A stretch of 64,000 nt of DNA from an uncultured virus (IMG/VR IMGVR_UViG_3300032220_001634) (lineage: Duplodnaviria > Heunggongvirae > Uroviricota > Caudoviricetes). Positions 44,610 through 56,179 of the stretch are shown one piece after another (positions within the stretch are counted from its first letter, which is position 1; every line of letters starts with the position of its first letter). Location of the stretch: IMG/VR virus record IMGVR_UViG_3300032220_001634. One strand, 5' to 3'. The position numbers and the translations under genes were made by a program. Under the pieces are notes generated by a model that saw only the letters and a program-made list of their open reading frames with translations, was not told where the DNA came from and searched no databases.

Positions 44610-44740
44610 CTGTTTGTTTTGGTTTTTTTTGGTTCAATCTATATATTCTTGTTGATCCAAAAATCCCTTTGATGAAAATAAAATCCAATAAAAAAGGCAG
44701 ATTTAATACCTGCCTTTTCGAATTTATTAAAAAAATATAT

Positions 44741-45031: not shown

Positions 45032-45041
45032 TTTTATTTAG

Positions 45042-45113
45042 TAGTCTCGCACGGAGTCGAACCGAAATTACCTCCGTGAAAGGGAGGCGTCCTAACCATT
45101 AGACGACGAGACC
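45042..45113 (-). tRNA. tRNA-Glu(TTC)
   Basis: Cloverleaf, CCTCC-CTTTCAC-GGAGG. Confidence 0.9.
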
Positions 45114-45118
45114 AATTG

Positions 45119-45213
45119 CGGGAATAGGGGGAATCGAACCCTCCGTCACGTCCATGTTCCTTGCTATAAAAGCGAAGTACTGAGGATTGCTCTAAACACT
45201 GAGCTACATTCCC
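45119..45213 (-). ncRNA. tRNA-like RNA with enlarged anticodon arm
   Basis: Normal acceptor, D and T arms; ~38-nt anticodon domain. Confidence 0.65.
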
Positions 45214-45216
45214 TAG

Positions 45217-45303
45217 CGGAGGCTCAGGGATTCGAACCCCGGTTACGGTTTCCCGTAAAGCGGTTTTCAAGACCGCCGCATTCGACCGCTCTGCCAAACC
45301 TCC
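45217..45303 (-). tRNA. tRNA-Ser(TGA)
   Basis: GCGGT-CTTGAAA-ACCGC, long variable arm. Confidence 0.93.
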
Positions 45304-45500
45304 GATTGACACCCTGTTTTATCCAACTACAGATGTCGTGGTTGTCCCTGACAATTGCCAGGTTAGGAATAGCCATTTGTCCTCACGAGGTCGGGCTGAC
45401 TTGCCCTGACGTTCTCCCTATACGTCAATGTACGTTCCCATACGGTCATCACTCCGTTTCTTATCATATTGGGCATATTATTCGGGGATAAGCCGAAACG
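45304..45500 (-). ncRNA. Candidate structured ncRNA (~197 nt)
   Basis: GC-rich spacer with at least six hairpins, between tRNA-Asp and tRNA-Ser. Confidence 0.5.
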
Positions 45501-45502
45501 TG

Positions 45503-45576
45503 CGGTCCCTGCGGGATTCGAACCCGCGACCTCCGCCGTGACAGGGCGGCGTTGTGACCAACTCTACTAAGAGACC
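45503..45576 (-). tRNA. tRNA-Asp(GTC)
   Basis: CCGCC-CTGTCAC-GGCGG. Confidence 0.93.
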
Positions 45577-45580
45577 TCTG

Positions 45581-45653
45581 AGCGGGAGACCGGGCTCGAA
45601 CCGGCCACCTATAGCTTGGAAGGCTATCGCTCTACCAAATGAGCTACTCCCGC
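45581..45653 (-). tRNA. tRNA-Gly(TCC)
   Basis: ATAGC-CTTCCAA-GCTAT. Confidence 0.93.
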
Positions 45654-45657
45654 TTGA

Positions 45658-45796
45658 AAGATAATGTCGGAGTACCCGTCTCGCTCCAATCTTAACAGCT
45701 TCATCAGAGTTTTCTCTGGGCCCAGGCTGAGGGTGCTGAACTTTTTGGCTCCCGTTGGAATTGTCGACATTCACAACGGGAAAGAACCATTATCTT
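45658..45796 (-). ncRNA. Candidate structured ncRNA (139 nt)
   Basis: Perfect 9-bp terminal stem AAGATAATG/CATTATCTT enclosing several hairpins. Confidence 0.5.
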
Positions 45797-45797
45797 A

Positions 45798-45893
45798 GCT
45801 GACTAAAGGGAATTGAACCCAGTCCTCCGGCCCTGATTTCAGCTGTGAGGCTTACTTTCCGGGGCCAGTGTGCCGCCTTTACACTATAGCCAA
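45798..45893 (-). ncRNA. tRNA-like RNA with branched insertion in the anticodon arm
   Basis: Acceptor TTGGCTA/TAGTCAG, D arm, GGGTTCAATTCCC T arm, CTGGCCC/GGGCCGG stem enclosing 28 nt. Confidence 0.6.
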
Positions 45894-45942
45894 TCGGACG
45901 TTTCGAACCGTCCAGACTCAGGGTAATTAGTCATGAGTCCTG

Positions 45943-46015
45943 TTGCGAGGGAGGGATTCGAACCCCCGACCTCCGGGTTATGAGCCCGGCCAGATACCGC
46001 TTCTAACACCTCGCA
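45943..46015 (-). tRNA. tRNA-Met(CAT), initiator type
   Basis: CCGGG-CTCATAA-CCCGG with three G-C pairs next to the loop. Confidence 0.88.
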
Positions 46016-46017
46016 AT

Positions 46018-46566
46018 CTATATTTTAATGTGACTCCATCTTTTTTCAGACTTTATCATCGCTACTGTTGTTTTCGTAACATTTTCAAAAAGATTAGCTA
46101 TTTTTTGATAGCTTAATTTTCCCTCTTTTAGATGTCTTTTAATCTCAATAACAGTATTCTCTGTTATCTTACTTCTTCCGTTTTTCTCTCCCGTTAATCT
46201 AATCCCAACTCTACCTTCTGCCCTTTTACTTAATATTTTTTTTGTTTCCTCAGAATGAGATTTCCCCTTAAATCCGTTACTTCCCTCTCCTCCTGCAGTA
46301 CCATTTAGAATATTAAATCCCCAAGACTTTAATTGTGATATCCAATATGATTCTCTAAAAGACCAATCGGATTCATCTACAGTTTCTAATATTTCCATCT
46401 TTGGCATTTGTCCAGATTTCAAAAGATCGTGTATCCATATTTCCTTTTGGGTTCTTCTTTTTTTAGATTCCTTAAGGTGTATTTTAAATCTTTTTTCCGG
46501 GTTATTAGATTTTCCAACGTATCTAATCCCTTCCGAGTCAGATAAAATATAAATATAAGTTTCCAT
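46018..46566 (-). mobile_element. Free-standing GIY-YIG homing endonuclease with NUMOD3 motif
   Basis: YIYIL...RYVGKS..PEKRF..H, E..WI, NGTAGGEG, GKSHSEETKK. Confidence 0.88.
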
Positions 46567-46657
46567 ATATTATATATCAAATTAGACTTCTGAAACCAAT
46601 GAGCTAACACTTTTGATTTTATCTATACTTTCAAAGAGCTTTTGTTTTTATTACTCA

Positions 46658-46690
46658 GCAAATATATTATTGTTTCACGGAGTAAAAAAA
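46658..46690 (-). promoter_or_regulatory. Putative early promoter (repeat copy)
   Basis: TTTTTTTA-N3-CG-N11-TATATTTGC. Confidence 0.65.
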
Positions 46691-47680
46691 TTATTCTTCT
46701 GATTTTTTCAAACTTTCTTGAATAACACCGATTATTCTATAAGGATCAGCGTTAGCAGCAGGTCTACGATCTTCCAAATAACCTTTTTTAGTTTCCATTG
46801 TGGATTGAGGAATTCTAATAGAAGCTCCTCGATCAGAAACGCCATAAGAGAATTTATCGATGTGTTGGGTTTCATGAAGACCTGTCAGTCTTTTATCATT
46901 GTCAGACCCGTAACATTCCATGTGCTCTTTGTGTCTCTTTTCAAAAGCGTCAAAGATTTTTTCGAACGTCGTCCAATCACCCAAGCTTCTCATTTTCTCA
47001 GTTGAGAAATTTGTATGAAGTCCGGATCCATTCCAATCACCAGATAGTGGTTTAGGTAAATAGTTTACTTGAACATCAAATTTCTCTGCCACTCTATCCA
47101 AAAGATATCTTGCTACCCAAAGCTGATCTGCTGCATCAGTTCCTTGTCCAAAGATCTGAAATTCCCACTGTCCCAAAAGTACCTCCGCGTTTATTCCTGT
47201 TATTCCTAATCCTGCATGGAGACAACAATCTAAATGTGCCTCTACTATTTCTCTTCCTGATACACTTTTCGATCCAACACCGCAGTAGTACTTTCCTTGA
47301 GGATCTTGATTTTCCAGATTTCCGAATCCTAACGGAAGCCCGTTTTTGAATAAAACATACTCCTGTTCAAATCCCCACCAGTTGTCTTTTATATACTCAA
47401 CAGAACTTCTCATGTTTGTCTCATGAGGTGTACCGTCTGGATTTAGAACTTCACAAAGCACCAAGAAAGAATTTTCTCTCTGCGGATCAGGAAGCAACTT
47501 TACCGGTTGCAAGACGCAATCAGATTTTTTCCCTTCCGCTTGCATAGTTGAAGATCCATCAAAATTCCATCTAGGTAAATCCCCAACACTAACAACTTGA
47601 TTTATAATTTTAGTCTTAGATCTTAAATTTGGTTCTGGTTTATACCCGTCTAGCCAAATGTATTCGTACTTATACTTCAT
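46691..47680 (-). CDS. glnA: Glutamine synthetase (GSII type)
   Basis: EYIWLDG..NLRSKT, WNFDGSST, PQGKYYCG, NAEV..GQWEFQ, DWNGSGLHTNFS, RLTGLHET, GYLEDRRP. Confidence 0.95.
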   Translation of the reverse strand: MKYKYEYIWLDGYKPEPNLRSKTKIINQVVSVGDLPRWNFDGSSTMQAEGKKSDCVLQPVKLLPDPQRENSFLVLCEVLNPDGTPHETNMRSSVEYIKDNWWGFEQEYVLFKNGLPLGFGNLENQDPQGKYYCGVGSKSVSGREIVEAHLDCCLHAGLGITGINAEVLLGQWEFQIFGQGTDAADQLWVARYLLDRVAEKFDVQVNYLPKPLSGDWNGSGLHTNFSTEKMRSLGDWTTFEKIFDAFEKRHKEHMECYGSDNDKRLTGLHETQHIDKFSYGVSDRGASIRIPQSTMETKKGYLEDRRPAANADPYRIIGVIQESLKKSEE

Positions 47681-47749
47681 AGATTTACTTTAATTGTTAT
47701 ACACCTAAGGATTAAAAATGATTCATCTTACAGCTTATTTTTTTATCTG

Positions 47750-47835
47750 CGGAGAGCGGAGGAATCGAACCTCATGCAGTTACCCGCACGTCGCGCTTAG
47801 CAGGCGGACCTACTCACCGTTGTAGGTCGCTCTCC
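47750..47835 (-). tRNA. tRNA-Ser(GCT)
   Basis: CTGCTAA loop, long variable arm. Confidence 0.85.
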
Positions 47836-47840
47836 ATTAG

Positions 47841-47927
47841 TACCTCGGGTCGGGGTCGAACCGACACGGACCTTTCGGTCCACAAGATTTTAAGTCTTGC
47901 ATGTGCTACCAATTTCATCACCGAGGC
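47841..47927 (-). tRNA. tRNA-Leu(TAA)
   Basis: CAAGA-CTTAAAA-TCTTG, long variable arm. Confidence 0.92.
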
Positions 47928-47930
47928 ATA

Positions 47931-48005
47931 GGTTGACCGACCGGGTTCGAACCGGCGACGACAGGTGCCACAAACCTGTGCTCTACCAACTGAGCTACAG
48001 CCAAC
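47931..48005 (-). tRNA. tRNA-His(GTG)
   Basis: CAGGT-TTGTGGC-ACCTG. Confidence 0.9.
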
Positions 48006-48012
48006 ATGAAAA

Positions 48013-48453
48013 TTAAATCTCTTTTGTTTTCTCGAACTCTTCAGGGTCTACCTCTTTAATCGGGACAAACAAAGCGTATCCATCATCGTCTTCGAAATGA
48101 TTGCAAACATCTAAGAATACACCAAATTTATGTCTCCAGTATTCAAAGACATTTTTTTCTGCGTTCCATCTTGCCACCGTGCAATTTCTATGATTTCCTA
48201 AATAGCAATTTCCATGAACGAGATCTTTCTTAGGTATAGCTCCTGCCTTAATGAGTTTAGGAACATAGAATTCTCTATACTCATTTTTTTCAACCCTAGG
48301 TATTGCGGGGACATCATATGGATTCTCGAACTTTCCTAGAGTTTCCCAATGTTCTCTTATTCTAGCTTCTCTTTCATCATGAAGCCTTTTTCTCTCCTTC
48401 TCAAATTTAAGACGGAGTAGATCTTTGTTTTCCTGTTCCATTTCTTTTTTCAT
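48013..48453 (-). CDS. Hypothetical protein inside tRNA operon
   Basis: 146 aa ORF between tRNA-Cys and tRNA-His. Confidence 0.65.
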   Translation of the reverse strand: MKKEMEQENKDLLRLKFEKERKRLHDEREARIREHWETLGKFENPYDVPAIPRVEKNEYREFYVPKLIKAGAIPKKDLVHGNCYLGNHRNCTVARWNAEKNVFEYWRHKFGVFLDVCNHFEDDDGYALFVPIKEVDPEEFEKTKEI

Positions 48454-48468
48454 AATTTATTTTTTTAG

Positions 48469-48543
48469 AGACGCCGGTCAGATTCGAACTGACGGTTATA
48501 CAATTTTGCAGACCGTTGCTTTGGGCCACTCAGCCACAGCGTC
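48469..48543 (-). tRNA. tRNA-Cys(GCA)
   Basis: CTGCAAA loop, U discriminator. Confidence 0.9.
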
Positions 48544-48552
48544 TTATTTTAG

Positions 48553-48625
48553 AGGACAGTGTCGGATTCGAACCAACTTCCCGTGATTACAAATCACGTA
48601 TTCTAACCAGTTGAACTAACCGTCC
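48553..48625 (-). tRNA. tRNA-Thr(TGT)
   Basis: CGTGA-TTTGTAA-TCACG. Confidence 0.9.
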
Positions 48626-48660
48626 TTTTTAGCTTACATTATGCCAAAGATCACTACAAA

Positions 48661-48699
48661 GAAAAAGGTCTCTTAGTTTTTGACTAAGAGACCTTTTTT
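48661..48699 (-). terminator. Attenuator terminator of tRNA operon 2
   Basis: AAAAAGGTCTCTTAGT-CAAAA-ACTAAGAGACCTTTTT. Confidence 0.85.
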
Positions 48700-48718
48700 A
48701 TATGACTTTATTAAAATC

Positions 48719-48805
48719 TTATTTATCCCTTAGTACAGTGCAAGTTTCCCCGTCACATAACGTTGATGTGTGGCTACTCGATTCTGTATGGAATAAATTT
48801 TTCAT
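48719..48805 (-). CDS. Putative leader peptide 2, MKNLFHTESSSHTSTLCDGETCTVLRDK
   Basis: 28-codon ORF between promoters and terminator; its 3' end is complementary to the terminator 5' arm. Confidence 0.8.
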   Translation of the reverse strand: MKNLFHTESSSHTSTLCDGETCTVLRDK

Positions 48806-48842
48806 TTGCTTTTTATATATCTTTTCGATTTCTTAATTTTAC

Positions 48843-48875
48843 CCAAAGATAAAAAAAAGTTTCGAAATAAAAAAA
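48843..48875 (-). promoter_or_regulatory. Putative early promoter of tRNA operon 2 (GATATATA motif also at 48814-48821)
   Basis: TTTTTTTA-N3-CG-N11-TATCTTTGG. Confidence 0.7.
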
Positions 48876-48989
48876 TATTACATAGGGTTTTTATGTTGGT
48901 ATTCCTACCTATAGTCAGTGACCCGTTAAATCATAATTTTTTGTCCACTGTAATAATTTCTCCTCTATATATAAAAATAAAAAAAAGTT

Positions 48990-49553
48990 ATGAGAAAGAT
49001 TTTACTGGCATTAGCCTTATTAATTCCCGTTTTGAGTCAAGCGCAGGAATTCACCTTTAATTCCTACGTCGATCAGGAAGTTTCTTGTTTTGGAAACAAT
49101 GATGGAACTATTCAATCCGAAGCATCCCCTGTAGGAAATTACGTGTACTCAATATCAAGAGGAACGACATTTAAAGATTCGAACAATTCAGGTACATTTT
49201 ATAAGTTAGAACCCGGAACCTATAAATCTTGCGGCAGTAACGGAAAGATTAAAAAATGTGTTACTTTAAAAGTTACACAGCCTAAAAAACTAGATATTAA
49301 TTTTATAGTAAATAAATACCCAACTATAAATGACAATAATGGAATATTGGCGGTTGAACTTAAAGGTGGAACTACAGAGATTCAGCCTTATTTAGTTACA
49401 TGGAAAAATAGCAGCTGTAAAATAATGAATAGCGAAGATCAGATGTATCCTATGGAAATGGATAAATTGCCCGCTGATTCTTATATTGTTACTATCGAAG
49501 ATGACAGAGGATGTTTTCTGACAAGATCCTACGATTTATTGCTGAAGAAATAA
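48990..49553 (+). CDS. Secreted SprB-repeat-like protein
   Basis: Signal peptide, VSCFGNNDGTI, GGT...PY..TW, Y.VTIEDDRGC. Confidence 0.7.
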   Translation: MRKILLALALLIPVLSQAQEFTFNSYVDQEVSCFGNNDGTIQSEASPVGNYVYSISRGTTFKDSNNSGTFYKLEPGTYKSCGSNGKIKKCVTLKVTQPKKLDINFIVNKYPTINDNNGILAVELKGGTTEIQPYLVTWKNSSCKIMNSEDQMYPMEMDKLPADSYIVTIEDDRGCFLTRSYDLLLKK

Positions 49554-49554
49554 G

Positions 49555-49626
49555 CAGTCCCAAAAGGATTCGAACCCTTACCGCTTGATCCGTAGTCAAG
49601 AATGCTATCCATTACACCATAGGACT
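49555..49626 (-). tRNA. tRNA-Arg(ACG)
   Basis: CTTGA-CTACGGA-TCAAG. Confidence 0.9.
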
Positions 49627-49632
49627 AGTTTG

Positions 49633-49706
49633 TGGACCCGACAGGACTTGAACCTGTGACCCTCTGATTATGAGTCAGACGCTCTAACCAACTGAGCTAC
49701 GGGTCC
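49633..49706 (-). tRNA. tRNA-CAT (Ile2 or elongator Met)
   Basis: TCTGA-CTCATAA-TCAGA; GGACCC acceptor resembles Ile2. Confidence 0.85.
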
Positions 49707-49761
49707 TTTGAGATTTGACTCTATTTATACCATTTTGCTAGAATAAATTTCTCAGTTTATC

Positions 49762-50157
49762 TTAGATAGATTTCTCACCGTCAGAGCCAGCAAAGAATCC
49801 CAAAAGAGATCTGATATTTCTCTGCTCGTTACCAAGAGCTTCTATTTTAATTCGATCAGAATTTATTGCTCTCTGAACTAAAGCCAAATCAGCTTTCTTT
49901 TCATTGAGAACGTCATGAGAAGATGCTTGATCGATAAAAGCAGATTCGCGGGATTCTGCATTGCTGTAAACTTTTTTCCCGTTCTCGTCCATCGCTGCAC
50001 TGATGCTTGACTTTATGGTTGATTCAATCTGTGAGATCTCATCGGAGATAGATTGGGATTTTTCATTCAGATCCAGGATGGATGTTTGGTGCGAATAGAT
50101 CATGTCAGGAATAGACAAAAGCTTTTCTGCTAATTGGGTCAATCTTTCTTTATTCAT
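49762..50157 (-). CDS. Hypothetical coiled-coil protein
   Basis: 131 aa helical ORF. Confidence 0.6.
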   Translation of the reverse strand: MNKERLTQLAEKLLSIPDMIYSHQTSILDLNEKSQSISDEISQIESTIKSSISAAMDENGKKVYSNAESRESAFIDQASSHDVLNEKKADLALVQRAINSDRIKIEALGNEQRNIRSLLGFFAGSDGEKSI

Positions 50158-50173
50158 ATTTTTTATTTTTTAG

Positions 50174-50255
50174 TGGGAGTAGGTGGACTCGAACCACCGA
50201 ACTCGAAAGAGGAGGGATTTACAGTCCCTTGCAATTGCCGCTATGCGATACTCCC
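50174..50255 (-). tRNA. tRNA-Tyr(GTA)
   Basis: AGGGA-CTGTAAA-TCCCT, long variable arm. Confidence 0.92.
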
Positions 50256-50266
50256 TTTTATATTCG

Positions 50267-50340
50267 TAGTCTCTATAGGATTCGAACCTATGACCCTCTG
50301 GATGTAAGCCAGATGCTCTAACCAACTGAGCTAAGAGACT
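50267..50340 (-). tRNA. tRNA-Val(TAC)
   Basis: TCTGG-CTTACAT-CCAGA. Confidence 0.92.
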
Positions 50341-50384
50341 GTAAAGATAAAACAAAATTACGAGATAAAAAAATATTTAACCGA

Positions 50385-50606
50385 TTATTTCCATTTTGTT
50401 TTTCTATTGTACTTCCATGTTTTGTACTCACATACTTTTTGCCATGAAATTCTTTTATTGGGATTTTTATAACCTCTTTTATAATAAGGATAGAAATTCA
50501 ATCCCTCATCCCAGTAAAGTGGATACCATTCATTTAAAGAGATTAAGTGGTAATCCCTACCACATTCTGCTTTTCCAAGCTTTGCTCTGTTTCTGTGTTT
50601 TGACAT
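50385..50606 (-). CDS. Small basic hypothetical protein
   Basis: 73 aa Lys/Tyr/Trp-rich ORF ending in YKTWKYNRKTKWK. Confidence 0.55.
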   Translation of the reverse strand: MSKHRNRAKLGKAECGRDYHLISLNEWYPLYWDEGLNFYPYYKRGYKNPNKRISWQKVCEYKTWKYNRKTKWK

Positions 50607-50671
50607 GTTTATTAGGTTTTGTTACCTAATAAAAATCATTTGCTTTTTTCATATTCATTTATTTTTTTTAG

Positions 50672-50743
50672 TAGCGAGTGAGAGTTCCGAGATCCCGTCC
50701 TTCCGGATATGAGCCGGATGCTCTTCCTCTGAGCTAACTCGCT
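50672..50743 (-). tRNA. tRNA-Met(CAT), atypical T-loop
   Basis: TCCGG-CTCATAT-CCGGA; T arm GGGATCTCGGAACTCTC. Confidence 0.8.
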
Positions 50744-50744
50744 A

Positions 50745-50820
50745 TGGAGCGGATGTCGAGAATCGGACTCGCATCTCCAGTTTGGAAGACTGGAGTAATA
50801 AGCCATTATACGACATCCGC
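50745..50820 (-). tRNA. tRNA-Gly(TCC), encoded CCA
   Basis: CCAGT-CTTCCAA-ACTGG. Confidence 0.9.
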
Positions 50821-50826
50821 TTATTG

Positions 50827-50898
50827 CTGTGACGGAGAATTACGATATCTCGACCCCCTGATTAACAGTCAGGTGCTCTGCCTCTGAGCTACGTCACA
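50827..50898 (-). tRNA. tRNA-Asn(GTT), atypical T-loop
   Basis: CCTGA-CTGTTAA-TCAGG; T arm GAGATATCGTAATTCTC. Confidence 0.87.
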
Positions 50899-50903
50899 AT
50901 GTT

Positions 50904-50983
50904 TGGTTGGCAGAATGGGATTCGAACCCATATGTAACCAGTTAACCTTTCTACCACGTATCAGGCGGAGGGTATATCTGCCA
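50904..50983 (-). tRNA. Non-canonical D-armless tRNA-Ile(GAT)-like RNA with encoded CCA
   Basis: TGGCAGA/TCTGCCA-A-CCA acceptor, ATGGG-TTCGAAT-CCCAT T arm, CCGC-CTGATAC-GTGG arm, no D arm. Confidence 0.65.
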
Positions 50984-51036
50984 ATGTGCTTTGCATATTG
51001 TGAGCATTACACTTTGCAAATTTCAAAGAACTTTAG

Positions 51037-51107
51037 TTGTCCCTGGAGGATTCGAACCTCCACAATCAGAATCAAAATCTGACGTCCTGCCATTAGACGA
51101 AGGGACA
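51037..51107 (-). tRNA. tRNA-Gln(TTG)
   Basis: TCAGA-TTTTGAT-TCTGA. Confidence 0.9.
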
Positions 51108-51117
51108 ATTTAATTTG

Positions 51118-51190
51118 CACGCCTGGATGGGTTCGAACCACCGACACCTGGTTTTGGAGACCAGTGCTCTACCAACTGAGCTACAGACGT
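51118..51190 (-). tRNA. tRNA-Trp(CCA)
   Basis: CTGGT-CTCCAAA-ACCAG. Confidence 0.93.
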
Positions 51191-51196
51191 ATTTTG

Positions 51197-51270
51197 TGGA
51201 GGATATCGGGCCCGAACCGATGACCCCTTGCGTGCAAGGCAAGTGCTCTAGCCAACTGAGCTAATCCCCC
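51197..51270 (-). tRNA. tRNA-Ala(TGC)
   Basis: CTTGC-CTTGCAC-GCAAG, G3-U70 pair. Confidence 0.93.
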
Positions 51271-51271
51271 G

Positions 51272-51349
51272 TGGTCGGGGTGGCCGGACTCGAACCGACA
51301 CGATATCCTCATCCCAAATGAGGAGGCTTACCAATTAGCCCACACCCCG
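51272..51349 (-). tRNA. tRNA-Pro(TGG), encoded CCA
   Basis: CCTCA-TTTGGGA-TGAGG. Confidence 0.92.
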
Positions 51350-51394
51350 TTAATATTAATTACCAATATGTCAATGAACTTTTACTTTCTTTAG

Positions 51395-51467
51395 TGACCC
51401 CGGCGAGAATCGAACTCGCGACCCCCTGGTTAAAAGCCAGGTGCTCTACCTACTAAGCTACGAAGTC
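51395..51467 (-). tRNA. tRNA-Lys(TTT)
   Basis: CCTGG-CTTTTAA-CCAGG. Confidence 0.92.
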
Positions 51468-51566
51468 ATTATTTTCTTAGACGACCGTAACCTATTAGAT
51501 CAGAGGGCCGTTACCGTTTTCGTTTCATTTTTAATTTCTTTTTCATTTTAATTCCTAATTCTTTTG

Positions 51567-51639
51567 TGGAGGTGCCTGGTTACGCTCCAGGTCCTTCAGA
51601 TTTTCAGTCTGACGCTTCTACTAAGTTAGCTTCACCTCC
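51567..51639 (-). tRNA. tRNA-Phe(GAA), atypical T-loop
   Basis: TCAGA-CTGAAAA-TCTGA; T arm CCTGG-AGCGTAA-CCAGG. Confidence 0.87.
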
Positions 51640-51643
51640 GGGT

Positions 51644-51679
51644 AAAAAAAAACTCCGAATCTTTCGATCCGGAGTTTTT
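51644..51679 (-). terminator. Attenuator terminator of tRNA operon 1
   Basis: AAAAACTCCGGATC-GAAA-GATTCGGAG followed by T9, ending 4 nt before tRNA-Phe. Confidence 0.88.
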
Positions 51680-51700
51680 ATATGTTTAGAATTATATTAT

Positions 51701-51823
51701 CTAGCCATGATTTATATCTCCGGATTTATTTTCAATATTATACCATTTAGCATTACCCACCTGGATAGCCGGGAAGCCTGCTGGCATAAATTGTTTAGCG
51801 ATATTTCCGAAGTTTTTCTTCAT
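51701..51823 (-). CDS. Putative leader peptide 1, MKKNFGNIAKQFMPAGFPAIQVGNAKWYNIENKSGDINHG
   Basis: 40-codon ORF after GATATATA (51844-51851); contains ATCCGGAG, complementary to the terminator 5' arm. Confidence 0.82.
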   Translation of the reverse strand: MKKNFGNIAKQFMPAGFPAIQVGNAKWYNIENKSGDINHG

Positions 51824-51897
51824 TTTTATTTAATTGTGGATATTATATATCATTTCTCTTTTTTGTTTCTCTGAATAATAAGATATATTTTAATCTA

Positions 51898-52950
51898 TTA
51901 TTTTTTATATTTCCACCTAGCCCTAGTGCAATTTTCAGGTTTTCTATTTTTCTTAAGGTATAGATTTATATAGCCAATCATATTACCGGCTCCTATAGGG
52001 TTAGCAGAATGCACGTAACACTGGGGTAAGTCAGTGCTGGATTTTTCAGAATGATCAGTCAACCATCTGACAACGTCCATTCCTGTCTTTTCCTTTATCT
52101 GCGTGTAATCAACCTCATAATTACTCTTCACGTGAGAATAATAGTGTGCAGTAGCGCTTTCGTCTAAATCGTGATCTAGAGAAATTATGTCTATATTTGA
52201 TAATCCGATTTCAGTAACTTTATTAACAAACTCATCGAAGTTCTTAACTACTATCCAATCATTTCCTTTAGGATGTTCCAGAGGTATTCTAAAGTCATCT
52301 AAATATATTGAAACCTTAGGTTCTTTCTTAACAAACCATGTACCGAGCCATTCCTGGGTGATTCCTAAATCGTATCCATGTGCTTGACAAAATTCATCCA
52401 CAGCAGGATTGACTCCAAAAACACCACCATAAGAAGACTCTCCGGTTGGTGAAGTTAAATAGATGTGCTTATCTTTACCATTTTCAGCAAAGGGTGGTTC
52501 TTCCCAATTCAAATCAAGATAGTCGTGTCCGCATAAACATCCACCTCTTTTAACTTTTCTATACCATAAGTTTATATCTTGCTTTACATAGTCATAAGCA
52601 TGATTTGCGTCAATATAAACAAAGTCTAATGAATTATCTTGAAAGAGATCTGCAGCAATCTCGGAAGTTGCTCTGATCATTATTCCCCTATCTTCTAATC
52701 CTGAGGTGTTTCTCATTGCTTCTCCGTAAACTCCATTTTCAAAATTTCCGTGATTCGAAGAGTCAACATACTCATCTCCGAGCGGTCTCCACACATCGAC
52801 CATATAAAGTTTCCCTTCCCAGATTTCCAAAATCTTTTTAGAAAATTCCCCTTTGAATGTACCAACCTCAACTCCTTTCCCCTGTGGGAATTCCAAGCCA
52901 ATCTCTCTGATAAGATCAATCCTGTCTATATTTCTTTTATTTACTCTCAT
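51898..52950 (-). CDS. Methyltransferase fused to a cyclic-phosphate-processing receiver-like domain
   Basis: EVGTFKG, YIDANHAY, GHDY; C-terminal IYLDDFRIP...ISLDHDL...TGMD...VHSANPIGA. Confidence 0.75.
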   Translation of the reverse strand: MRVNKRNIDRIDLIREIGLEFPQGKGVEVGTFKGEFSKKILEIWEGKLYMVDVWRPLGDEYVDSSNHGNFENGVYGEAMRNTSGLEDRGIMIRATSEIAADLFQDNSLDFVYIDANHAYDYVKQDINLWYRKVKRGGCLCGHDYLDLNWEEPPFAENGKDKHIYLTSPTGESSYGGVFGVNPAVDEFCQAHGYDLGITQEWLGTWFVKKEPKVSIYLDDFRIPLEHPKGNDWIVVKNFDEFVNKVTEIGLSNIDIISLDHDLDESATAHYYSHVKSNYEVDYTQIKEKTGMDVVRWLTDHSEKSSTDLPQCYVHSANPIGAGNMIGYINLYLKKNRKPENCTRARWKYKK

Positions 52951-53764
52951 TTATTTTTGTTGTTTTATAAAAATAATCCATCATTTTTTCTAATTCCTCT
53001 TTATCCTTTATACCGTGATAGAATTTAACGTTCGCAGAGTTTTCGCACTTCTGAAGATCGTTTCCAAAAACATCTTCGCTTACTATATTATCGTTATTTT
53101 CTACGTGCTGAACAACATCCGCATATCCCGTGTTTACAAAAATTCTCCCGTAATTCTGGTTTGCTCCTCTTTTCCATAGAATCACATTAATTGGAGTCTC
53201 GTCAGAAAAGGGGAAATACTCAGGACCGAACTGATTTAGATATTCATTCTCTGTGATGGACTTTGCTTCAAGCATGAATTGTTCACACTTTGAATTCATA
53301 CTCATTAGACAGCTATAAACGTAATTCATCGTTCTGCCTCTTACTCCTAAATAATCACAGAGTTTAGATTCACTGTATACTATCTTATTTCCTTGTCCAT
53401 CTATTTCATAATAAAATGGAAAGTCCCAGTTACCGACTGAGCATAGAGGATAGTCGAAATCGTGAACGAAGAATTCCGGATCGAATCTTTTTCCCACTAA
53501 GATATCGGTGTCCATAAAAAGTATGTCTCCACCGAATGATCTAATCGCATCCAGACAGATGCCAGGCTTGTAATTGTTAAATCTTTTTATTCTTGGATCT
53601 AATGGCCAAACTTTTTTGACCATATTGGGATAGTTAAGATCTGACTCAAATCCCAGGGTGTAATAGAGGAAGGTTAGATTACCATGTCCATTTAGGAGGA
53701 GCGATTTATATAATGACTCTACTTGGTACTCATAGTTTTTATCAGAGTATGCTAATATTACCAC
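52937..53764 (-). CDS. Probable glycosyltransferase (DTD motif)
   Basis: LFMDTD, DETPINVILWK, FYHG. Confidence 0.5.
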   Translation of the reverse strand: MVILAYSDKNYEYQVESLYKSLLLNGHGNLTFLYYTLGFESDLNYPNMVKKVWPLDPRIKRFNNYKPGICLDAIRSFGGDILFMDTDILVGKRFDPEFFVHDFDYPLCSVGNWDFPFYYEIDGQGNKIVYSESKLCDYLGVRGRTMNYVYSCLMSMNSKCEQFMLEAKSITENEYLNQFGPEYFPFSDETPINVILWKRGANQNYGRIFVNTGYADVVQHVENNDNIVSEDVFGNDLQKCENSANVKFYHGIKDKEELEKMMDYFYKTTKINESK

Positions 53765-53783
53765 TGGCTTAAATTATTTTTTG

Positions 53784-53865
53784 TGCCCAATGAGGGACTC
53801 GAACCCCCACGTCGTGAAACACTAGATCCTAAGTCTAGCGCGGCTACCAATTACGCCAATTGGGC
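53784..53865 (-). tRNA. tRNA-Leu(TAG)
   Basis: CTAGA-CTTAGGA-TCTAG. Confidence 0.92.
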
Positions 53866-53937
53866 ATTTTATTCTCTTTATATCTAGATAGAGAGAAAAG
53901 ATTTCAAATATAATTTAAAACCAGTGGCTAATATTTG

Positions 53938-54053
53938 TACAAGAGGAAGGATTTGCACCTCCACGGTTTAGTTACCTATCAACCAACCTCTGTAACGAGG
54001 TAACGTCTATCTATGGTTACGTTGGCCACCGCAACACTTTCCGCCACTCTTGT
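53938..54053 (-). ncRNA. Leu-type tRNA-like RNA with ~30-nt D-loop insertion and 6-nt anticodon loop
   Basis: ACAAGAG/CTCTTGT-A acceptor, TGGCGGAA...AGACG, ACCTC-GTTACA-GAGGT, long variable arm, GGAGG-TGCAAAT-CCTTC. Confidence 0.65.
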
Positions 54054-54059
54054 ATTTTG

Positions 54060-54143
54060 TGACCTGGGAGAGATTCGAACTCTCACGCCATTTCTAGCAC
54101 CACCCCCTCAAGATGGCGTGTCTACCAATTCCACCACCAAGCC
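54060..54143 (-). tRNA. tRNA-Leu(GAG)
   Basis: CCATC-TTGAGGG-GGTGG, long variable arm. Confidence 0.9.
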
Positions 54144-54165
54144 ATTATTTAAAAGATCAATTTAG

Positions 54166-54237
54166 TACTCCCGATAGGAATCGAACCTATATCTACTGCT
54201 TAGAAGGCAGTTGCTCTATCCATTGAGCTACGGGAGC
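54166..54237 (-). tRNA. tRNA-Arg(TCT)
   Basis: ACTGC-CTTCTAA-GCAGT. Confidence 0.92.
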
Positions 54238-54264
54238 AGGTTTTTTTACTTCATATTCTATTTT

Positions 54265-54297
54265 GTAAAGATAGAATTATTTCTCGATATAAAAAAA
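54265..54297 (-). promoter_or_regulatory. Putative early promoter of the Arg/Leu tRNA cluster
   Basis: TTTTTTTA-N3-CG-N11-TATCTTTAC. Confidence 0.7.
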
Positions 54298-54422
54298 TTT
54301 TATGGTATTTTTTTCCAAATATTTCTTATAGAGCTTTAAACTTTTCTTGAATATGCTATGACTAACTAATAATCATGATCGAATGGGGAAGTGCTATGAT
54401 ATTCTGATCCCGTGAGACAAAA

Positions 54423-54450
54423 AAAAAGCTTAGGTAATCCTAAGCTTTTT
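54423..54450 (-). terminator. Intrinsic terminator
   Basis: AAAAAGCTTAGG/CCTAAGCTTTTT. Confidence 0.7.
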
Positions 54451-54468
54451 CATTTTCTTTCTTTCTGA

Positions 54469-54672
54469 TTAGTCTGAACACTTGTCTGAACACTCTGTAG
54501 AATCTACAGAAACGTGAGTTGAGTCGCTTAGAAGAGATCCTGTTGAATCTACTTTTGAAGTGCTGTCAGCTACAGTTGTGCTGTCGGTAGAAGTTGCTTC
54601 AGTAGAAGCTCCACCGCTGCAAGAAGTTAAGGCTAAAATTGCTACAAAACTGATTAAAAATACTTTTTTCAT
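54469..54672 (-). CDS. Small Ser/Thr-rich lipoprotein
   Basis: Lipobox LALTSC, repeated DS/DST. Confidence 0.75.
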   Translation of the reverse strand: MKKVFLISFVAILALTSCSGGASTEATSTDSTTVADSTSKVDSTGSLLSDSTHVSVDSTECSDKCSD

Positions 54673-54742
54673 AATTCTATTTTTTTTAAATTTACCTGGT
54701 TTATAGCCAGATTTTTGGATTTGTTCCGGTTTATATATCTTT

Positions 54743-55192
54743 TTATTTACAAAGTGCGTCGGCTACCGATATGGCCCAGGGTGACATACTTTTATATCTA
54801 GCCTCTATTCCTAGGGAATGGATTAAACCCACAGCAGCTCTGAGAAGTGAGTTAGACTGATATTTAGGATCAGGATTTAGATCTATATCTATGTAATCCG
54901 GCTGTATATTATGATCCATGACATACTGGGCAGCTTCCACACTTAGCTCCACCTCCTTCCAAAGTCTTTCATAACTAGACTGAATTCTAGGGGTTTGTAT
55001 TCTTTTATATAGAACGTGACCTCCCCTCCCGCTGTTATGTAGTACTATAACAACAGCAAAGGTTGTTTTAGTTGATGTGTTGTGAGAATCACATCCTATG
55101 TAAATCTTATTCCCTGGATTTTCAGATAACCATTTAGGTAAATACTCATCCAGAATAACAGGGTCTCCATTGGATAATTTACGCCAGTTCAT
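54743..55192 (-). CDS. RNase H-like YkuK (DUF458) family protein
   Basis: IYIGCDS, GRGGH, RLWKEVELS, IDIDLN, VAD; likely start MNWRK at 55192. Confidence 0.8.
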   Translation of the reverse strand: MNWRKLSNGDPVILDEYLPKWLSENPGNKIYIGCDSHNTSTKTTFAVVIVLHNSGRGGHVLYKRIQTPRIQSSYERLWKEVELSVEAAQYVMDHNIQPDYIDIDLNPDPKYQSNSLLRAAVGLIHSLGIEARYKSMSPWAISVADALCK

Positions 55193-55246
55193 AATGAAAT
55201 ATTTTCTTTGATTCAATCTATATATTAGATTAAAGTTTCGGCTAGA

Positions 55247-55672
55247 ATGGGATTTTCTAAAAATAAAGAAAAAATAATTTGGACTAATGGCTGTTTTGAC
55301 ATCCTCCATTTGGGGCACGTCAGAATGCTAGAGTTTGCCAAATCTTTGGGAGATAGGCTAGTTGTCGGAATTGACACTGACGAAAGGGTTAAAGTAAACA
55401 AGGGAAAGAATCGTCCGATAAACAAACAGGAATATCGGGCAGAAATGCTCAGATCGTTAAAATTTGTTAACGAAGTTGTCTTTTTTGATTCAGTTGACTC
55501 TTTAAAGCAAAGAATTTTAGAAAGCGGTGCAGAGTTGATCGTCGTGGGTAGAGAATACGAAAAAACCGGGGTGATAGGTTCCGATTTGGTCCCTGTCGTT
55601 TTCTTCGATAGAATTCTCGGAATTTCCTCATCATTAATTATAGAAAACATAAATACCGATAGAGATATATAG
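55247..55672 (+). CDS. HldE/RfaE domain II-like sugar-phosphate nucleotidyltransferase
   Basis: TNGCFDILHLGH, LVVGIDTD..V..NKG.NRP, SSS. Confidence 0.85.
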   Translation: MGFSKNKEKIIWTNGCFDILHLGHVRMLEFAKSLGDRLVVGIDTDERVKVNKGKNRPINKQEYRAEMLRSLKFVNEVVFFDSVDSLKQRILESGAELIVVGREYEKTGVIGSDLVPVVFFDRILGISSSLIIENINTDRDI

Positions 55673-55693
55673 TAGAAATTGCTTTTTAAGGTA

Positions 55694-56179
55694 ATGGATA
55701 GAATATTAAACCTCAGTGCATTCGGAGACGTTATAGAAAAACCTAAGGGTATAGCAGCGGGACCAGTCCCAGCTCCTGTTAAGAAAGAGACCTCTCATTA
55801 TAATAAGGTCTTTTCTAAGATTCTTCAAAACATGGCTCAAACAAAACTTCTACACTGGCAAAGTGCTATGTATGGACAGCATAAGGCATTAGATGGTCTT
55901 TTCGAGGGAATTATAGAACTTGGAGATAAACTAGCAGAAACTGTGATGGGCAAATACGGTAGACCGGTTTTAAGTGACGATGAGCTATGTTTAAAAATGA
56001 AAAACTTCGAGAATGCAGAAAGGGGAGACCTATCTGAATTTATGACACATTTGTATCAATGCTACTCTGTAGACTGCAGAACAATTTTTGAGAAGAATGA
56101 GGATTCGGAAATTATAAATATCCTAGATGAAATACTCTCACTGGTAGATCAAACTAAATATCTTCTTTCTTTAAGATAA
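55694..56179 (+). CDS. Ferritin/Dps-like protein (DUF5856-like)
   Basis: KLLHWQ...QHKALD..FE....D..AE..MG.YGR...NILDE....KYLL. Confidence 0.7.
   Translation: MDRILNLSAFGDVIEKPKGIAAGPVPAPVKKETSHYNKVFSKILQNMAQTKLLHWQSAMYGQHKALDGLFEGIIELGDKLAETVMGKYGRPVLSDDELCLKMKNFENAERGDLSEFMTHLYQCYSVDCRTIFEKNEDSEIINILDEILSLVDQTKYLLSLR

What the first reader, a model, noticed from the sequence alone, without database searches (positions are those of the whole stretch)
50174..51851. tRNA operon 1 sits behind a codon-matched leader-peptide attenuator
Seen, on the minus strand: a promoter motif (51844-51851), a 40-codon ORF (51701-51823), then an intrinsic terminator (51644-51679) ending 4 nt before tRNA-Phe. 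The first 30 codons (MKKNFGNIAKQFMPAGFPAIQVGNAKWYNI) use exactly 12 amino acids: M,K,N,F,G,I,A,Q,P,V,W,Y. The next 12 tRNA genes are Phe, Lys, Pro, Ala, Trp, Gln, Ile-like, Asn, Gly, Met, Val and Tyr, the same set; S,T,C,H,L,R,D,E are absent from that stretch. Synonymous codons are sampled systematically (AAG/AAA, AAC/AAT, TTC/TTT, CAA/CAG, CCA/CCG, GGA/GGC/GGT, ATC/ATT). The leader's 3' part has ATCCGGAG (51718-51725), complementary to the terminator's 5' arm CTCCGGAT (51667-51674). Established: this is the trp/his-type ribosome-mediated attenuation layout. Inference: a ribosome stalled on any listed codon leaves the antiterminator free, so the phage makes these tRNAs only when the host's are uncharged or destroyed (e.g. 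by anticodon nucleases). That would be a multiplexed tRNA-pool sensor; I do not know of this being described for phage tRNA arrays.
Basis: partly seen in the sequence, partly recalled or inferred. Interest (0 to 1): 0.96.

Follow-up and report, generated by a model that had tools for sequence, protein, structure and literature searches.

The report
Codon-matched leader attenuators before phage tRNAs
A giant freshwater phage puts each of its two main blocks of tRNA genes behind a tiny translated test gene, written mostly in the codons those tRNAs read, and a switchable transcription stop, so it probably makes a tRNA set when ribosomes read its codons slowly.

Summary
A promoter-like motif, a 40-codon ORF and a strong intrinsic terminator end 4 nt before tRNA-Phe. 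The first 30 codons use exactly the 12 amino acids of the next 12 tRNA genes; the Ile gene is degenerate.

It is not chance. The element is conserved upstream of tRNA arrays in 36 related loci (28 distinct leader DNAs) from 200-430 kb uncultured phages. The ORF is always open, and a tRNA starts 2-21 nt after the U-tract in 26 of 26 cases.

Two helices show compensatory changes: the terminator, and a long-range helix between codons 4-6 and codons 33-36. The terminator's 5' arm finds its best complement at codons 33-38 in 26 of 28, but covariation for that pairing was not significant.

A second leader (48719-48805), rich in S, T, C, H, L, D and E, precedes the Thr-Cys-His-Leu-Ser-Asp-Glu block. 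Its sequence diverges among relatives while its composition is kept. Shuffling tRNA labels reached the observed leader/block match in 3 of 200,000 trials.

Best reading (about 0.7): ribosome-mediated attenuation that adjusts each tRNA block to how fast its own codons are decoded. Nothing is shown experimentally, and eight literature searches found no description.

The parts
51843..51851 (-). Promoter-like motif GATATATAA, about 20 nt upstream of the leader-1 start codon
   Evidence: Read. There are 7 copies in the window against 1.70 expected, and 0 of 100 shuffles reach 7. It is conserved upstream of leader 1 in relatives and also precedes leader 2 and several ordinary genes.
51701..51823 (-). 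Leader-1 ORF, 40 codons plus TAG. Codons 2-29/30 form the predicted sensing part, written in 12 amino acids.
   Evidence: The ORF is open in all 28 distinct relatives, with synonymous variation at 4-fold sites. Ribosome-mask model.
51806..51812 (-). Segment 1 (CTTCGGA, codons 4-6); pairs with segment 2 as the anti-antiterminator
   Evidence: RNAfold. 90.8% of cells paired, 2 pairs with compensatory changes (25 cells), covariation 0.288 against 0.149 in shuffles, 0 of 500 shuffles as high.
51738..51789 (-). Inner helix: Phe-Met-Pro codons (51789-51782) pair with Trp-Tyr-Asn codons (51745-51738), enclosing a small hairpin
   Evidence: RNAfold. RNAalifold consensus has 7 pairs, all invariant, so they carry no covariation information.
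51718..51725 (-). Segment 2 (ATCCGGAG, codons 33-36); complementary to both segment 1 and the terminator 5' arm
   Evidence: The best duplex of the terminator 5' arm on the ORF falls here (-14.2 kcal/mol), and at the equivalent place in 26 of 28 relatives.
51644..51679 (-). Intrinsic terminator: A5, CTCCGGATC, GAAA loop, GATTCGGAG, T9
   Evidence: 93.7% paired, 3 pairs with compensatory changes, 0 of 500 shuffles reach the covariation score.
50173..51639 (-). tRNA block 1: Phe, Lys, Pro, Ala, Trp, Gln, Ile-like, Asn, Gly, Met, Val, Tyr, with a 73-aa ORF between Met and Val
49554..49706 (-). tRNA-Met(CAU) and tRNA-Arg(ACG), same strand, downstream of block 1 and upstream of leader 2. No terminator detected before them in the window.
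   Evidence: In four relatives (L031, L034, L026, L022) a terminator-like hairpin separates the Arg gene from block 1.
48813..48821 (-). Promoter-like motif GATATATAA of leader 2
48719..48805 (-). Leader-2 ORF, 28 codons plus TAA. Codons 6-23 use only H,T,E,S,L,C,D,G.
48725..48734 (-). Segment 2 of leader 2 (ACTAAGGGAT, last codons of the ORF); complementary to the 5' arm of its terminator
   Evidence: Duplex of -12.2 kcal/mol at ORF nt 71-82 of 87. The own pair is stronger than any cross-subfamily pair in all 6 sequences.
48662..48698 (-). Intrinsic terminator of leader 2 (16-pair stem, then a T-run)
   Evidence: -20.1 kcal/mol.
45041..48625 (-). tRNA block 2: Thr, Cys, His, Leu, Ser, Met, Gly, Asp, Ser, an unassigned tRNA-like gene, and Glu, interspersed with three ORFs

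Best explanation
These are two ribosome-mediated transcription attenuators of the trp/his/ilv type. They gate tRNA genes instead of biosynthetic genes.

Transcription starts at a phage promoter motif (GATATATAA) and runs into a short ORF. The body of the ORF is enclosed by a long-range helix, segment 1 with segment 2. Segment 2 can instead pair with the 5' arm of an intrinsic terminator that lies immediately in front of the first tRNA.

Termination is expected in two situations. With no ribosome on the leader, 1:2 forms and then the terminator. With a ribosome that runs quickly to the end of the ORF, segment 2 is covered and the terminator also forms.

Read-through is expected when a ribosome stalls on a hungry codon in the sensing part: A-site codons 2-29 of leader 1, or 2-21 of leader 2. 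Segment 2 then stays free, pairs with the terminator arm, and RNA polymerase reads into the tRNA block.

Leader 1 is written in F,K,P,A,W,Q,I,N,G,M,V,Y. Leader 2 is written mainly in S,T,C,H,L,D,E,G. These are the amino acids of their own downstream tRNAs. Each block would therefore be switched up when decoding of its own codon set is slow, and switched down again once the tRNAs it encodes are abundant and charged.

Shown by computation: the anatomy, its conservation, covariation of two helices, and the composition match. Inferred: translation of the ORFs, stalling, read-through, and the physiological trigger.
For: Conservation:
- 11 viral-contig loci and 25 metagenome loci carry the leader. 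Together with the window they give 28 distinct leader-plus-terminator DNAs.
- The ORF has 40-45 codons and is open in all 28. Synonymous variation occurs at Pro14, Gly23, Ala25, Gln21 and Lys26.
- A tRNA gene begins 2-21 nt after the T-run in 26 of 26 sequences whose downstream DNA is present; 2 are cut by contig ends. There is no room for a separate promoter.

Structure:
- The terminator and the segment 1:2 helix each have compensatory changes. Their covariation scores are reached by 0 of 500 shuffles and exceed all slid registers.
- The terminator 5' arm has its best complement on the ORF at codons 33-38 in 26 of 28.

Composition:
- In the window, 58 of 68 leader residues fall in the leader's own downstream block. 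Permuting tRNA labels gives mean 36.5, sd 6.0, and 3 of 200,000 reach 58. The swapped assignment gives 19.
- Re-run from stored files: 0-1 of 100,000 for the window, 43 of 100,000 for G001, 452 of 100,000 for G002 and 2,827 of 100,000 for G003.
- Leader 2 differs strongly in sequence between subfamilies but keeps its S/T/L/H/D/C/E-rich core and its place before Ser/Thr/Cys/His/Leu/Asp/Glu genes.
- For leader 2, segment 2 follows the terminator sequence of its own subfamily: own against cross duplex is -12.2 against -6.9, -14.0 against -8.1, and -8.3 against -6.3 kcal/mol.

Sensing window:
- In the ribosome-mask model, leader-1 A-site codons 2-29 leave all 8 segment 2:3 pairs free, codon 30 leaves 6, and codons 31-39 leave none.
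- All four out-of-set residues of the window's leader 1 (E31, S34, D36, H39) lie in the masked part.
- Across the 28 sequences, 765 of 815 sensing-window residues are in the 12-letter set. In the tails it is 191 of 310, which is the background level.
Against: - Covariation for the leader-1 antiterminator in a fixed register was not significant: 79.0% paired against 77.6% in shuffles, with 59 of 500 shuffles as high. Part of this is misalignment of one subfamily.
- In 2 of 28 sequences (L004, L027) the best complement of the terminator arm is not at segment 2 and is weak, at -7.2 kcal/mol.
- Cross-subfamily duplex energies for leader 1 are mixed: A/C pairs are as good as own pairs.
- At equilibrium, 2:3 forms even without a ribosome. 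The no-translation state therefore depends on folding kinetics, which were not modelled.
- With the footprint used, a ribosome at the leader-1 stop codon still leaves 7 of 8 segment 2:3 pairs possible.
- The leader-1 peptide is far more conserved than classical leader peptides (11 invariant columns in 18 sequences). This could mean a functional or arrest peptide, although the invariant codons also form an RNA helix.
- Relatives carry T3, T4, R/S6, S11, S16 or S21 in the sensing part without Thr or Ser tRNAs in block 1. L014's block holds tRNA-Ser(AGA) although its leader head has no Ser.
- The window's tRNA-Ile is marginal (29.4 bits).
- The family members are homologous, so the per-genome tests are not independent.
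- I found leader 2 after adopting the hypothesis.
- There are no expression data and no cultured relative.
Confidence: 0.7

Rival explanations
1. The attenuators are real, but they sense general translation status (any slowing or uncoupling of ribosomes, for instance from host shut-off or ribosome-targeting defences) rather than the supply of particular tRNAs. On this view the alphabets are a by-product.
For: The sensing part holds 12 different amino acids with no runs of one codon, so any global slow-down would derepress it.
Against: Two leaders in one genome have nearly disjoint alphabets, and each matches its own block: 3 of 200,000 permutations reach the match, and the swapped assignment scores 19 against 58. 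Leader 2 keeps its composition while its sequence drifts. A general sensor needs neither property.
Confidence: 0.12
2. The small ORFs encode functional micro-proteins, or in leader 1 a nascent arrest peptide of the TnaC/SecM kind. The hairpins are then ordinary gene-end terminators that leak into the tRNA genes, and the composition match is coincidental.
For: The leader-1 peptide is strongly conserved: FMP and QVG.AKWY are invariant or nearly so. There is a weak sub-threshold Pfam match to the tryptophanase leader (E 0.047, 14.1 bits against a cut-off of 25, 1 of 18 members).
Against: The invariant codons form an RNA helix, which explains their conservation at 2-fold sites. Leader 2 is not conserved as a peptide. 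Neither the segment 1:2 covariation, nor segment 2 copying the terminator's 3' arm, nor the permutation result is expected for a plain small gene. Pfam gave no family above its cut-off and PHROGs no match with an E-value below 0.03.
Confidence: 0.08
3. The leader is a structured RNA switch that binds a factor directly (uncharged tRNA as in T-boxes, a protein or a metabolite), and the open frame is incidental.
For: A compact three-helix fold with invariant stems encloses the region.
Against: The frame is open in all 28 distinct sequences, every copy ends with an in-frame stop after 40-45 codons despite length differences, and 4-fold sites vary freely. No T-box or any other Rfam cis-regulatory family matched at 51640-51835 with E up to 1; the only match was STnc220 at 26 bits against a gathering score of 60.
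Confidence: 0.05

Closest known systems
Multivalent leader-peptide attenuators of enterobacterial amino-acid operons (thr leader with Thr and Ile codons; ilvGMEDA leader with Ile, Leu and Val codons; also trpL, hisL, pheL, leuL). Named from my own knowledge; general logic as described in the passages of PMC3082878 read and the abstract of PMC1183508 listed.
   Same: Promoter, short ORF with regulatory codons, and segments 1:2, 2:3 and 3:4 with an intrinsic terminator just before the regulated genes. The signal is the speed of decoding by charged tRNA.
   Different: The regulated genes are tRNAs, not enzymes. The regulatory codons are spread over 20-30 codons and cover 8-12 amino acids instead of forming runs of one to three. 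Segment 1 sits at codons 4-6, so the 1:2 helix encloses almost the whole ORF. Segment 2 lies inside the ORF, upstream of the stop codon. The elements are carried by a phage that probably infects Bacteroidota.
pheST (pheM leader) attenuation of phenylalanyl-tRNA synthetase in E. coli (recalled, not read here)
   Same: Leader-peptide attenuation applied to a component of the decoding machinery rather than to amino-acid synthesis.
   Different: It uses one amino acid, regulates a protein-coding operon, and is chromosomal.
T-box riboswitches (Rfam RF00230)
   Same: A terminator/antiterminator choice set by the state of a tRNA pool.
   Different: T-boxes bind uncharged tRNA directly through a specifier codon and need no translation. 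No T-box match was found here, and the element has a conserved ORF.
Phage tRNA arrays as counter-defence against tRNA-targeting nucleases (PMC10264068 and PMC11555353; search listing and start of abstracts only)
   Same: They give a reason why a phage would want its tRNAs to be demand-driven.
   Different: Judging by their titles and the start of their abstracts, those papers concern what phage tRNAs do. I did not read their texts for control of phage tRNA transcription.

Membership tests
Ribosome-mediated (leader-peptide) transcription attenuators | A short translated ORF between the promoter and the regulated genes | tested here: met
   ORF of 40-45 codons (leader 1), open in all 28 distinct sequences, with synonymous variation at 4-fold sites. 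Leader 2 has 28-33 codons in 6 sequences. Translation itself is not shown.
Ribosome-mediated (leader-peptide) transcription attenuators | Regulatory codons that correspond to the product of the regulated operon | tested here: met
   58 of 68 residues fall in the leader's own block, reached by 3 of 200,000 label permutations. 765 of 815 sensing-window residues are in the 12-letter set, against 191 of 310 in the tails. The form is altered: many amino acids and no codon runs.
Ribosome-mediated (leader-peptide) transcription attenuators | An intrinsic terminator between the leader and the first regulated gene | tested here: met
   Hairpins of -13.7 to -21 kcal/mol followed by T7-T10. The first tRNA begins 2-21 nt later in 26 of 26. 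Covariation supports the stem.
Ribosome-mediated (leader-peptide) transcription attenuators | An antiterminator (2:3) that is mutually exclusive with the terminator | tested here: inconclusive
   For leader 1, complementarity is at the same place in 26 of 28, at -9.3 to -17.1 kcal/mol. The fixed-register covariation test was not significant, with 59 of 500 shuffles as high. For leader 2, own duplexes are stronger than cross-subfamily duplexes.
Ribosome-mediated (leader-peptide) transcription attenuators | An upstream 1:2 hairpin that sequesters segment 2 when the leader is not being translated | tested here: met
   90.8% paired, 2 pairs with compensatory changes in 25 cells, 0 of 500 shuffles as high. 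However, equilibrium folding prefers 2:3 once segment 3 exists.
Ribosome-mediated (leader-peptide) transcription attenuators | Read-through rises when the cognate charged tRNA is limiting | not testable with these tools
   No RNA run holds the sequence, and GenBank phages hold no relative.
T-box riboswitch | Match to the T-box covariance model (specifier loop and T-box sequence) | tested here: not met
   cmscan of 44000-56000 with E up to 1 found no RF00230 match.
TnaC-type regulatory arrest peptide (Pfam PF08053) | Match to the family profile above its cut-off | tested here: not met
   14.1 bits against a cut-off of 25, E 0.047, in 1 of 18 members.

The most novel reading that the evidence does not exclude
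The phage divides most of the genetic code between two self-sensing tRNA operons. Each operon is headed by a test peptide spelled in its own codon set, so the virus continuously measures, block by block, whether those codons can still be decoded. It then derepresses exactly the tRNA block that is short. This would be a built-in monitor of decoding capacity, serving both as supply homeostasis and as an inducible answer to host tRNA-cleaving defences.
Probability: 0.55. Interest if true: 0.9.

Novelty: new variant of a known kind. Interest (0 to 1): 0.86.

Why it matters
Why phages carry tRNA genes is a long-standing question. Recent work ties phage tRNAs to escape from tRNA-targeting defences (PMC10264068 and PMC11555353; listing and abstract starts only).

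My searches turned up nothing on how such arrays are controlled. A leader-peptide attenuator written in the codons of its own tRNAs would be a form of regulation of tRNA transcription by decoding demand that I could not find described.

It would also extend classical attenuation in three ways: to non-coding products, to a multiplexed set of 8-12 amino acids, and to viruses of Bacteroidota.

It gives a directly testable design. Two leaders in one genome are predicted to respond to complementary sets of amino acids.

It also offers a natural template for synthetic sensors of codon-specific translation stress.

Tried and rejected
**Searches that found nothing useful**
- blastn of the region against GenBank phages found only tRNA-level similarity; 0 records cover 80% or more of the query.
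- tblastn of leader 1 against the same collection gave no match at E up to 1, so there is no cultured relative to propose experiments in.
- An exact 26-nt pattern from the leader gave 0 hits in viral contigs.
- No whole genome is held for the window.
- The genome-contig scan gave 2 loci. One is a 5-kb MAG contig carrying the same phage-type leader. The other is a weak 21-residue match in a Clostridiales MAG that I did not follow up.
- Pfam and PHROGs scans of 18 leader peptides gave one sub-threshold Tna_leader match and weak PHROG matches with E of 0.03 or more.
- Rfam gave no family for the leader.

**Expression and population data**
- No RNA holder is listed among public runs.
- Laying contigs of 4 DNA runs showed near-identical copies, with no informative variation inside either leader.

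**Structure predictions**
- RNAalifold on the 28-sequence alignment recovered the inner helix and the terminator but not the segment 1:2 helix. I tested that helix explicitly instead.
- The fixed-register covariation test of the antiterminator was not significant.

**Other places and ideas checked**
- The third tRNA block (Arg, Leu, Leu; 54237-53783) has no leader. It follows a 67-aa lipoprotein-like gene and a terminator.
- A sigma-70 consensus scan gave no more promoter-like sites than shuffles: 26 against 30.9.
- I considered co-variation between leader alphabet and block content across relatives. The block set is nearly constant in the family, and the few leader exceptions (T, R, S) are not matched by tRNAs. 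That test therefore has no power here, and where it speaks it speaks against strict matching.
- In one search the automatic segment-2 assignment failed for L027. Its row is included in the totals.
Full report
**What is there**

All features below are on the minus strand of the window.

- The motif GATATATAA lies at 51851-51843.
- It is followed by a 40-codon ORF (51823-51701).
- A spacer of 21 nt follows the stop codon.
- A hairpin, CTCCGGATC-GAAA-GATTCGGAG, is flanked by five A and nine T (51679-51644).
- Four bases later comes tRNA-Phe (51639-51566).

The first 30 residues use exactly 12 amino acids.

The next 12 tRNA genes are Phe, Lys, Pro, Ala, Trp, Gln, Ile-like, Asn, Gly, Met, Val and Tyr.

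- ARAGORN finds ten of them.
- The Met-CAU gene (50672-50743, 49.2 bits) is seen only by the Rfam tRNA model.
- The same holds for a D-armless gene with a long extra arm and anticodon GAU (50907-50983, 29.4 bits, at the cut-off).
- ARAGORN calls that second gene tRNA-Ile(gat) only at a lowered threshold.

The 8-nt stretch ATCCGGAG in codons 33-36 is the exact complement of the terminator's 5' arm.

tRNA-Met and tRNA-Arg(ACG) follow tRNA-Tyr on the same strand with no detected terminator between them, and the leader has no Arg codon.

**Where it comes from**

- The window is 36% G+C.
- It encodes a protein with a type IX secretion sorting domain (Por_Secre_tail, E 2.8e-9). This points to a Bacteroidota host.
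- It has no close relative among GenBank phages.
- Relatives are uncultured viral contigs of 208-434 kb, two of them with terminal repeats, and freshwater metagenome contigs.

**The element is a conserved family**

A search with the neighbouring gene led to a 430-kb viral contig. It carries a homologous 42-codon ORF, a terminator and tRNA-Pro.

Searching with the peptide alignment gave three sets of loci:

- 11 loci in viral contigs.
- 25 loci in metagenome contigs.
- 2 loci in 185,579 species genomes: a 5-kb MAG contig with the same phage-type leader, and one weak match.

Of 37 copies, 35 include the whole leader and terminator. They make 28 distinct DNA sequences.

In all 28 the frame is open for 40-45 codons. 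Four-fold sites of invariant residues vary freely: Pro14 is CCA/CCT/CCG, Gly23 uses all four codons, and Ala25 uses all four codons. This is the signature of selection on what is decoded.

A tRNA gene (Phe or Pro) starts 2-21 nt after the T-run in 26 of 26 sequences that reach that far. The tRNAs can therefore only be transcribed through the terminator.

The GATATATAA motif occurs 7 times in the window against 1.70 expected, and 0 of 100 shuffles reach 7. In the relatives it precedes the leaders and many ordinary genes, so it behaves like a promoter class of these phages.

**RNA structure**

RNAfold shows that codons 4-6 (segment 1, CUUCGGA) pair with codons 33-36 (segment 2). This pairing encloses an inner helix made by the Phe-Met-Pro codons and the Trp-Tyr-Asn codons. 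The layout is therefore the classical four-segment one.

Covariation tests on the 28-sequence alignment:

| Helix | Cells paired | Pairs with compensatory changes | Covariation score (observed / shuffled) | Shuffles as high |
|---|---|---|---|---|
| Terminator (3:4) | 93.7% | 3 | 0.220 / 0.100 | 0 of 500 |
| Segment 1:2 | 90.8% | 2 (25 cells) | 0.288 / 0.149 | 0 of 500 |
| Segment 2:3 (antiterminator), fixed register | 79.0% (77.6% in shuffles) | 1 | 0.058 / 0.054 | 59 of 500 for percent paired |

- For the first two helices, all slid registers score far lower.
- The G-to-A and C-to-U changes of one subfamily occur in parallel in segments 1, 2, 3 and 4.
- The antiterminator result is not significant. 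Part of the reason is that one subfamily pairs in a shifted, bulged register.
- An alignment-free test is more favourable. The best duplex of each terminator's 5' arm on its own ORF falls at codons 33-38 in 26 of 28 sequences, at -9.3 to -17.1 kcal/mol. The exceptions are L004 and L027.
- Own-against-cross subfamily energies are mixed for leader 1.

**A second leader with the complementary alphabet**

About 3 kb downstream, the same motif (48821-48813) precedes a 28-codon ORF (48805-48719). Its codons 6-23 use only H,T,E,S,L,C,D,G.

A 16-pair hairpin with a T-run follows (48698-48662). After it come tRNA-Thr, Cys, His, Leu, Ser, Met, Gly, Asp, Ser, an unassigned tRNA-like gene, and Glu.

The last codons of this ORF (ACUAAGGGAU) repeat the 3' arm of the terminator and pair with its 5' arm at -12.2 kcal/mol.

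Equivalent leaders stand at the same place in five other contigs.

- Their peptides differ strongly between subfamilies.
- All keep a core rich in S, T, L, H, D, C and E.
- All are followed by Ser/Thr/Cys/His/Leu/Asp/Glu genes.
- In each, segment 2 follows the terminator of its own subfamily. Own against cross duplex is -14.0 against -8.1 kcal/mol in one case and -8.3 against -6.3 kcal/mol in another.

Composition kept while sequence drifts is what is expected of a regulatory leader peptide. It is not expected of a functional protein.

**Is the match more than chance?**

I defined the blocks by the leaders themselves, so no cut-offs were chosen. On that basis 58 of the 68 residues of the two leaders belong to amino acids of their own downstream block.

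- Shuffling the tRNA labels over the array gives mean 36.5 and sd 6.0. Only 3 of 200,000 shuffles reach 58.
- Swapping the leaders gives 19.
- Of 195 small ATG ORFs in the window, one reaches each leader's score.

The test was repeated from stored files:

| Genome | Shuffles reaching the observed match |
|---|---|
| Window | 0-1 of 100,000 |
| G001 | 43 of 100,000 |
| G002 | 452 of 100,000 |
| G003 | 2,827 of 100,000 |

These genomes are related, so the tests are not independent.

**A structural prediction that fits the composition**

I masked a ribosome footprint (-15 to +12 around the A-site codon) and folded the transcript up to segment 3.

- For leader 1, A-site codons 2-29 leave all 8 segment 2:3 pairs free, codon 30 leaves 6, and codons 31-39 leave none.
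- The four residues of leader 1 outside the 12-letter set (E31, S34, D36, H39) all lie in the masked part.
- For leader 2, the free window is codons 2-21.

Across the 28 leader-1 sequences, 765 of 815 residues of the predicted sensing window are in the 12-letter set. In the tails it is 191 of 310, which is the background level. One row, L027, had a misassigned segment 2 and is included in these totals.

Eight of the 28 sequences have no exception in the sensing window. The exceptions elsewhere are T3, T4, R/S6, S11, S16 and S21. Leu, Asp, Glu, His and Cys never occur there.

**Weak points**

- At equilibrium, 2:3 forms even without a ribosome.
- With the footprint used, a ribosome at the stop codon of leader 1 still leaves 7 of 8 pairs possible. 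The off state must therefore rest on kinetics or on a larger footprint. From memory, the E. coli trp 3:4 hairpin is likewise more stable than 2:3.
- The leader-1 peptide is unusually conserved. The invariant two-fold codons form the inner helix, which gives an RNA-level reason for this.
- Thr, Arg and Ser codons in some relatives are not matched by tRNAs in their block. One relative has a Ser tRNA in the block without a Ser codon in the head.
- There are no expression data and no cultured relative.

**Comparison with what is known**

The mechanism is that of leader-peptide attenuators, most like the multivalent thr and ilv leaders. The differences are:

- The regulated genes are tRNAs.
- The regulatory codons cover 8-12 amino acids without runs.
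- The 1:2 helix encloses the ORF.
- Segment 2 lies inside the ORF.
- The carrier is a phage.

No T-box or other Rfam element matches. A Tna_leader match is below threshold and occurs in 1 of 18 members.

Eight full-text searches found no description of leader-peptide attenuation of tRNA genes or of phage tRNA arrays. I read passages of PMC3082878 and PMC2965389. In the passages shown, neither mentions tRNA genes as attenuated targets.

Notes of this scan describe similar elements in other phage genomes. They are unverified AI notes. I did not test them, and I use them only as a sign that the pattern may be widespread.

**Verdict**

I rate it a new variant of a known kind of regulation, of high interest. 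Experimental proof is lacking.

Noticed in passing
window 51511-51546 (-), and the tRNA-Lys upstream spacers of L004, L009, L015, L026, L028, L034: Between tRNA-Phe and tRNA-Lys lies an 11-codon Lys/Arg-rich mini-ORF followed by a hairpin without a T-run. In 6 of the 8 relatives inspected, the spacer upstream of tRNA-Lys holds a short frame with the same Met-Lys-Arg-Lys core. This may be a second-level Lys-specific element or a processing signal.
   Followed up: partly
window 50907-50983 (-): tRNA-Ile(GAU)-like gene without a D arm and with an 18-nt extra arm (Rfam 29.4 bits). Several relatives have a normal tRNA-Ile(gat) at this position, and others share the odd form (31.2 bits in L004 and L005).
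   Followed up: partly
window 45119-45213 (-): A 95-nt tRNA-like gene between tRNA-Ser(TGA) and tRNA-Glu. The Rfam tRNA model finds it (35.2 bits) but ARAGORN does not. Its anticodon is not assigned, and it may carry an insertion in the anticodon arm.
   Followed up: no
window about 45660-45940 (-): A G+C-rich 280-nt spacer between tRNA-Met and tRNA-Gly holds a T-loop-like GGGTTCAATTCCC and long inverted repeats. It could be a degenerate or interrupted tRNA, or another structured RNA.
   Followed up: no
window 48626-48661 (-), and the same spacer in L026, L031, L041-L043: Between the T-run of leader 2 and the first tRNA lies a 35-45-nt spacer with a conserved box (TCTTTGAC or TCTTTGGC). The box resembles the 5' arm of the terminator. 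Its function is unknown.
   Followed up: no
window 51898-52950 (-): The gene just upstream of leader 1 fuses a methyltransferase domain to a cREC_REC 'cyclic-phosphate processing receiver' domain (E 2.5e-19). By its Pfam description this domain belongs to cyclic-phosphate processing. In relatives the cREC part stands alone, next to the Arg/Leu tRNA block.
   Followed up: partly
window 46018-46566 (-) and 46691-47680 (-); L041, L042, L043: A GIY-YIG endonuclease gene and a glutamine-synthetase-like gene sit inside tRNA block 2. In relatives, several ORFs of about 215-230 aa, each behind a GATATATA motif, are scattered through the tRNA arrays. This may explain why tRNA order is shuffled between relatives.
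   Followed up: no
window 54469-54672 (-) with terminator 54422-54451: A 67-aa lipoprotein-like gene with Asp-Ser-Thr repeats, behind a GATATATAA motif and followed by a terminator, precedes the leaderless Arg/Leu/Leu tRNA block. This arrangement is conserved in relatives.
   Followed up: partly
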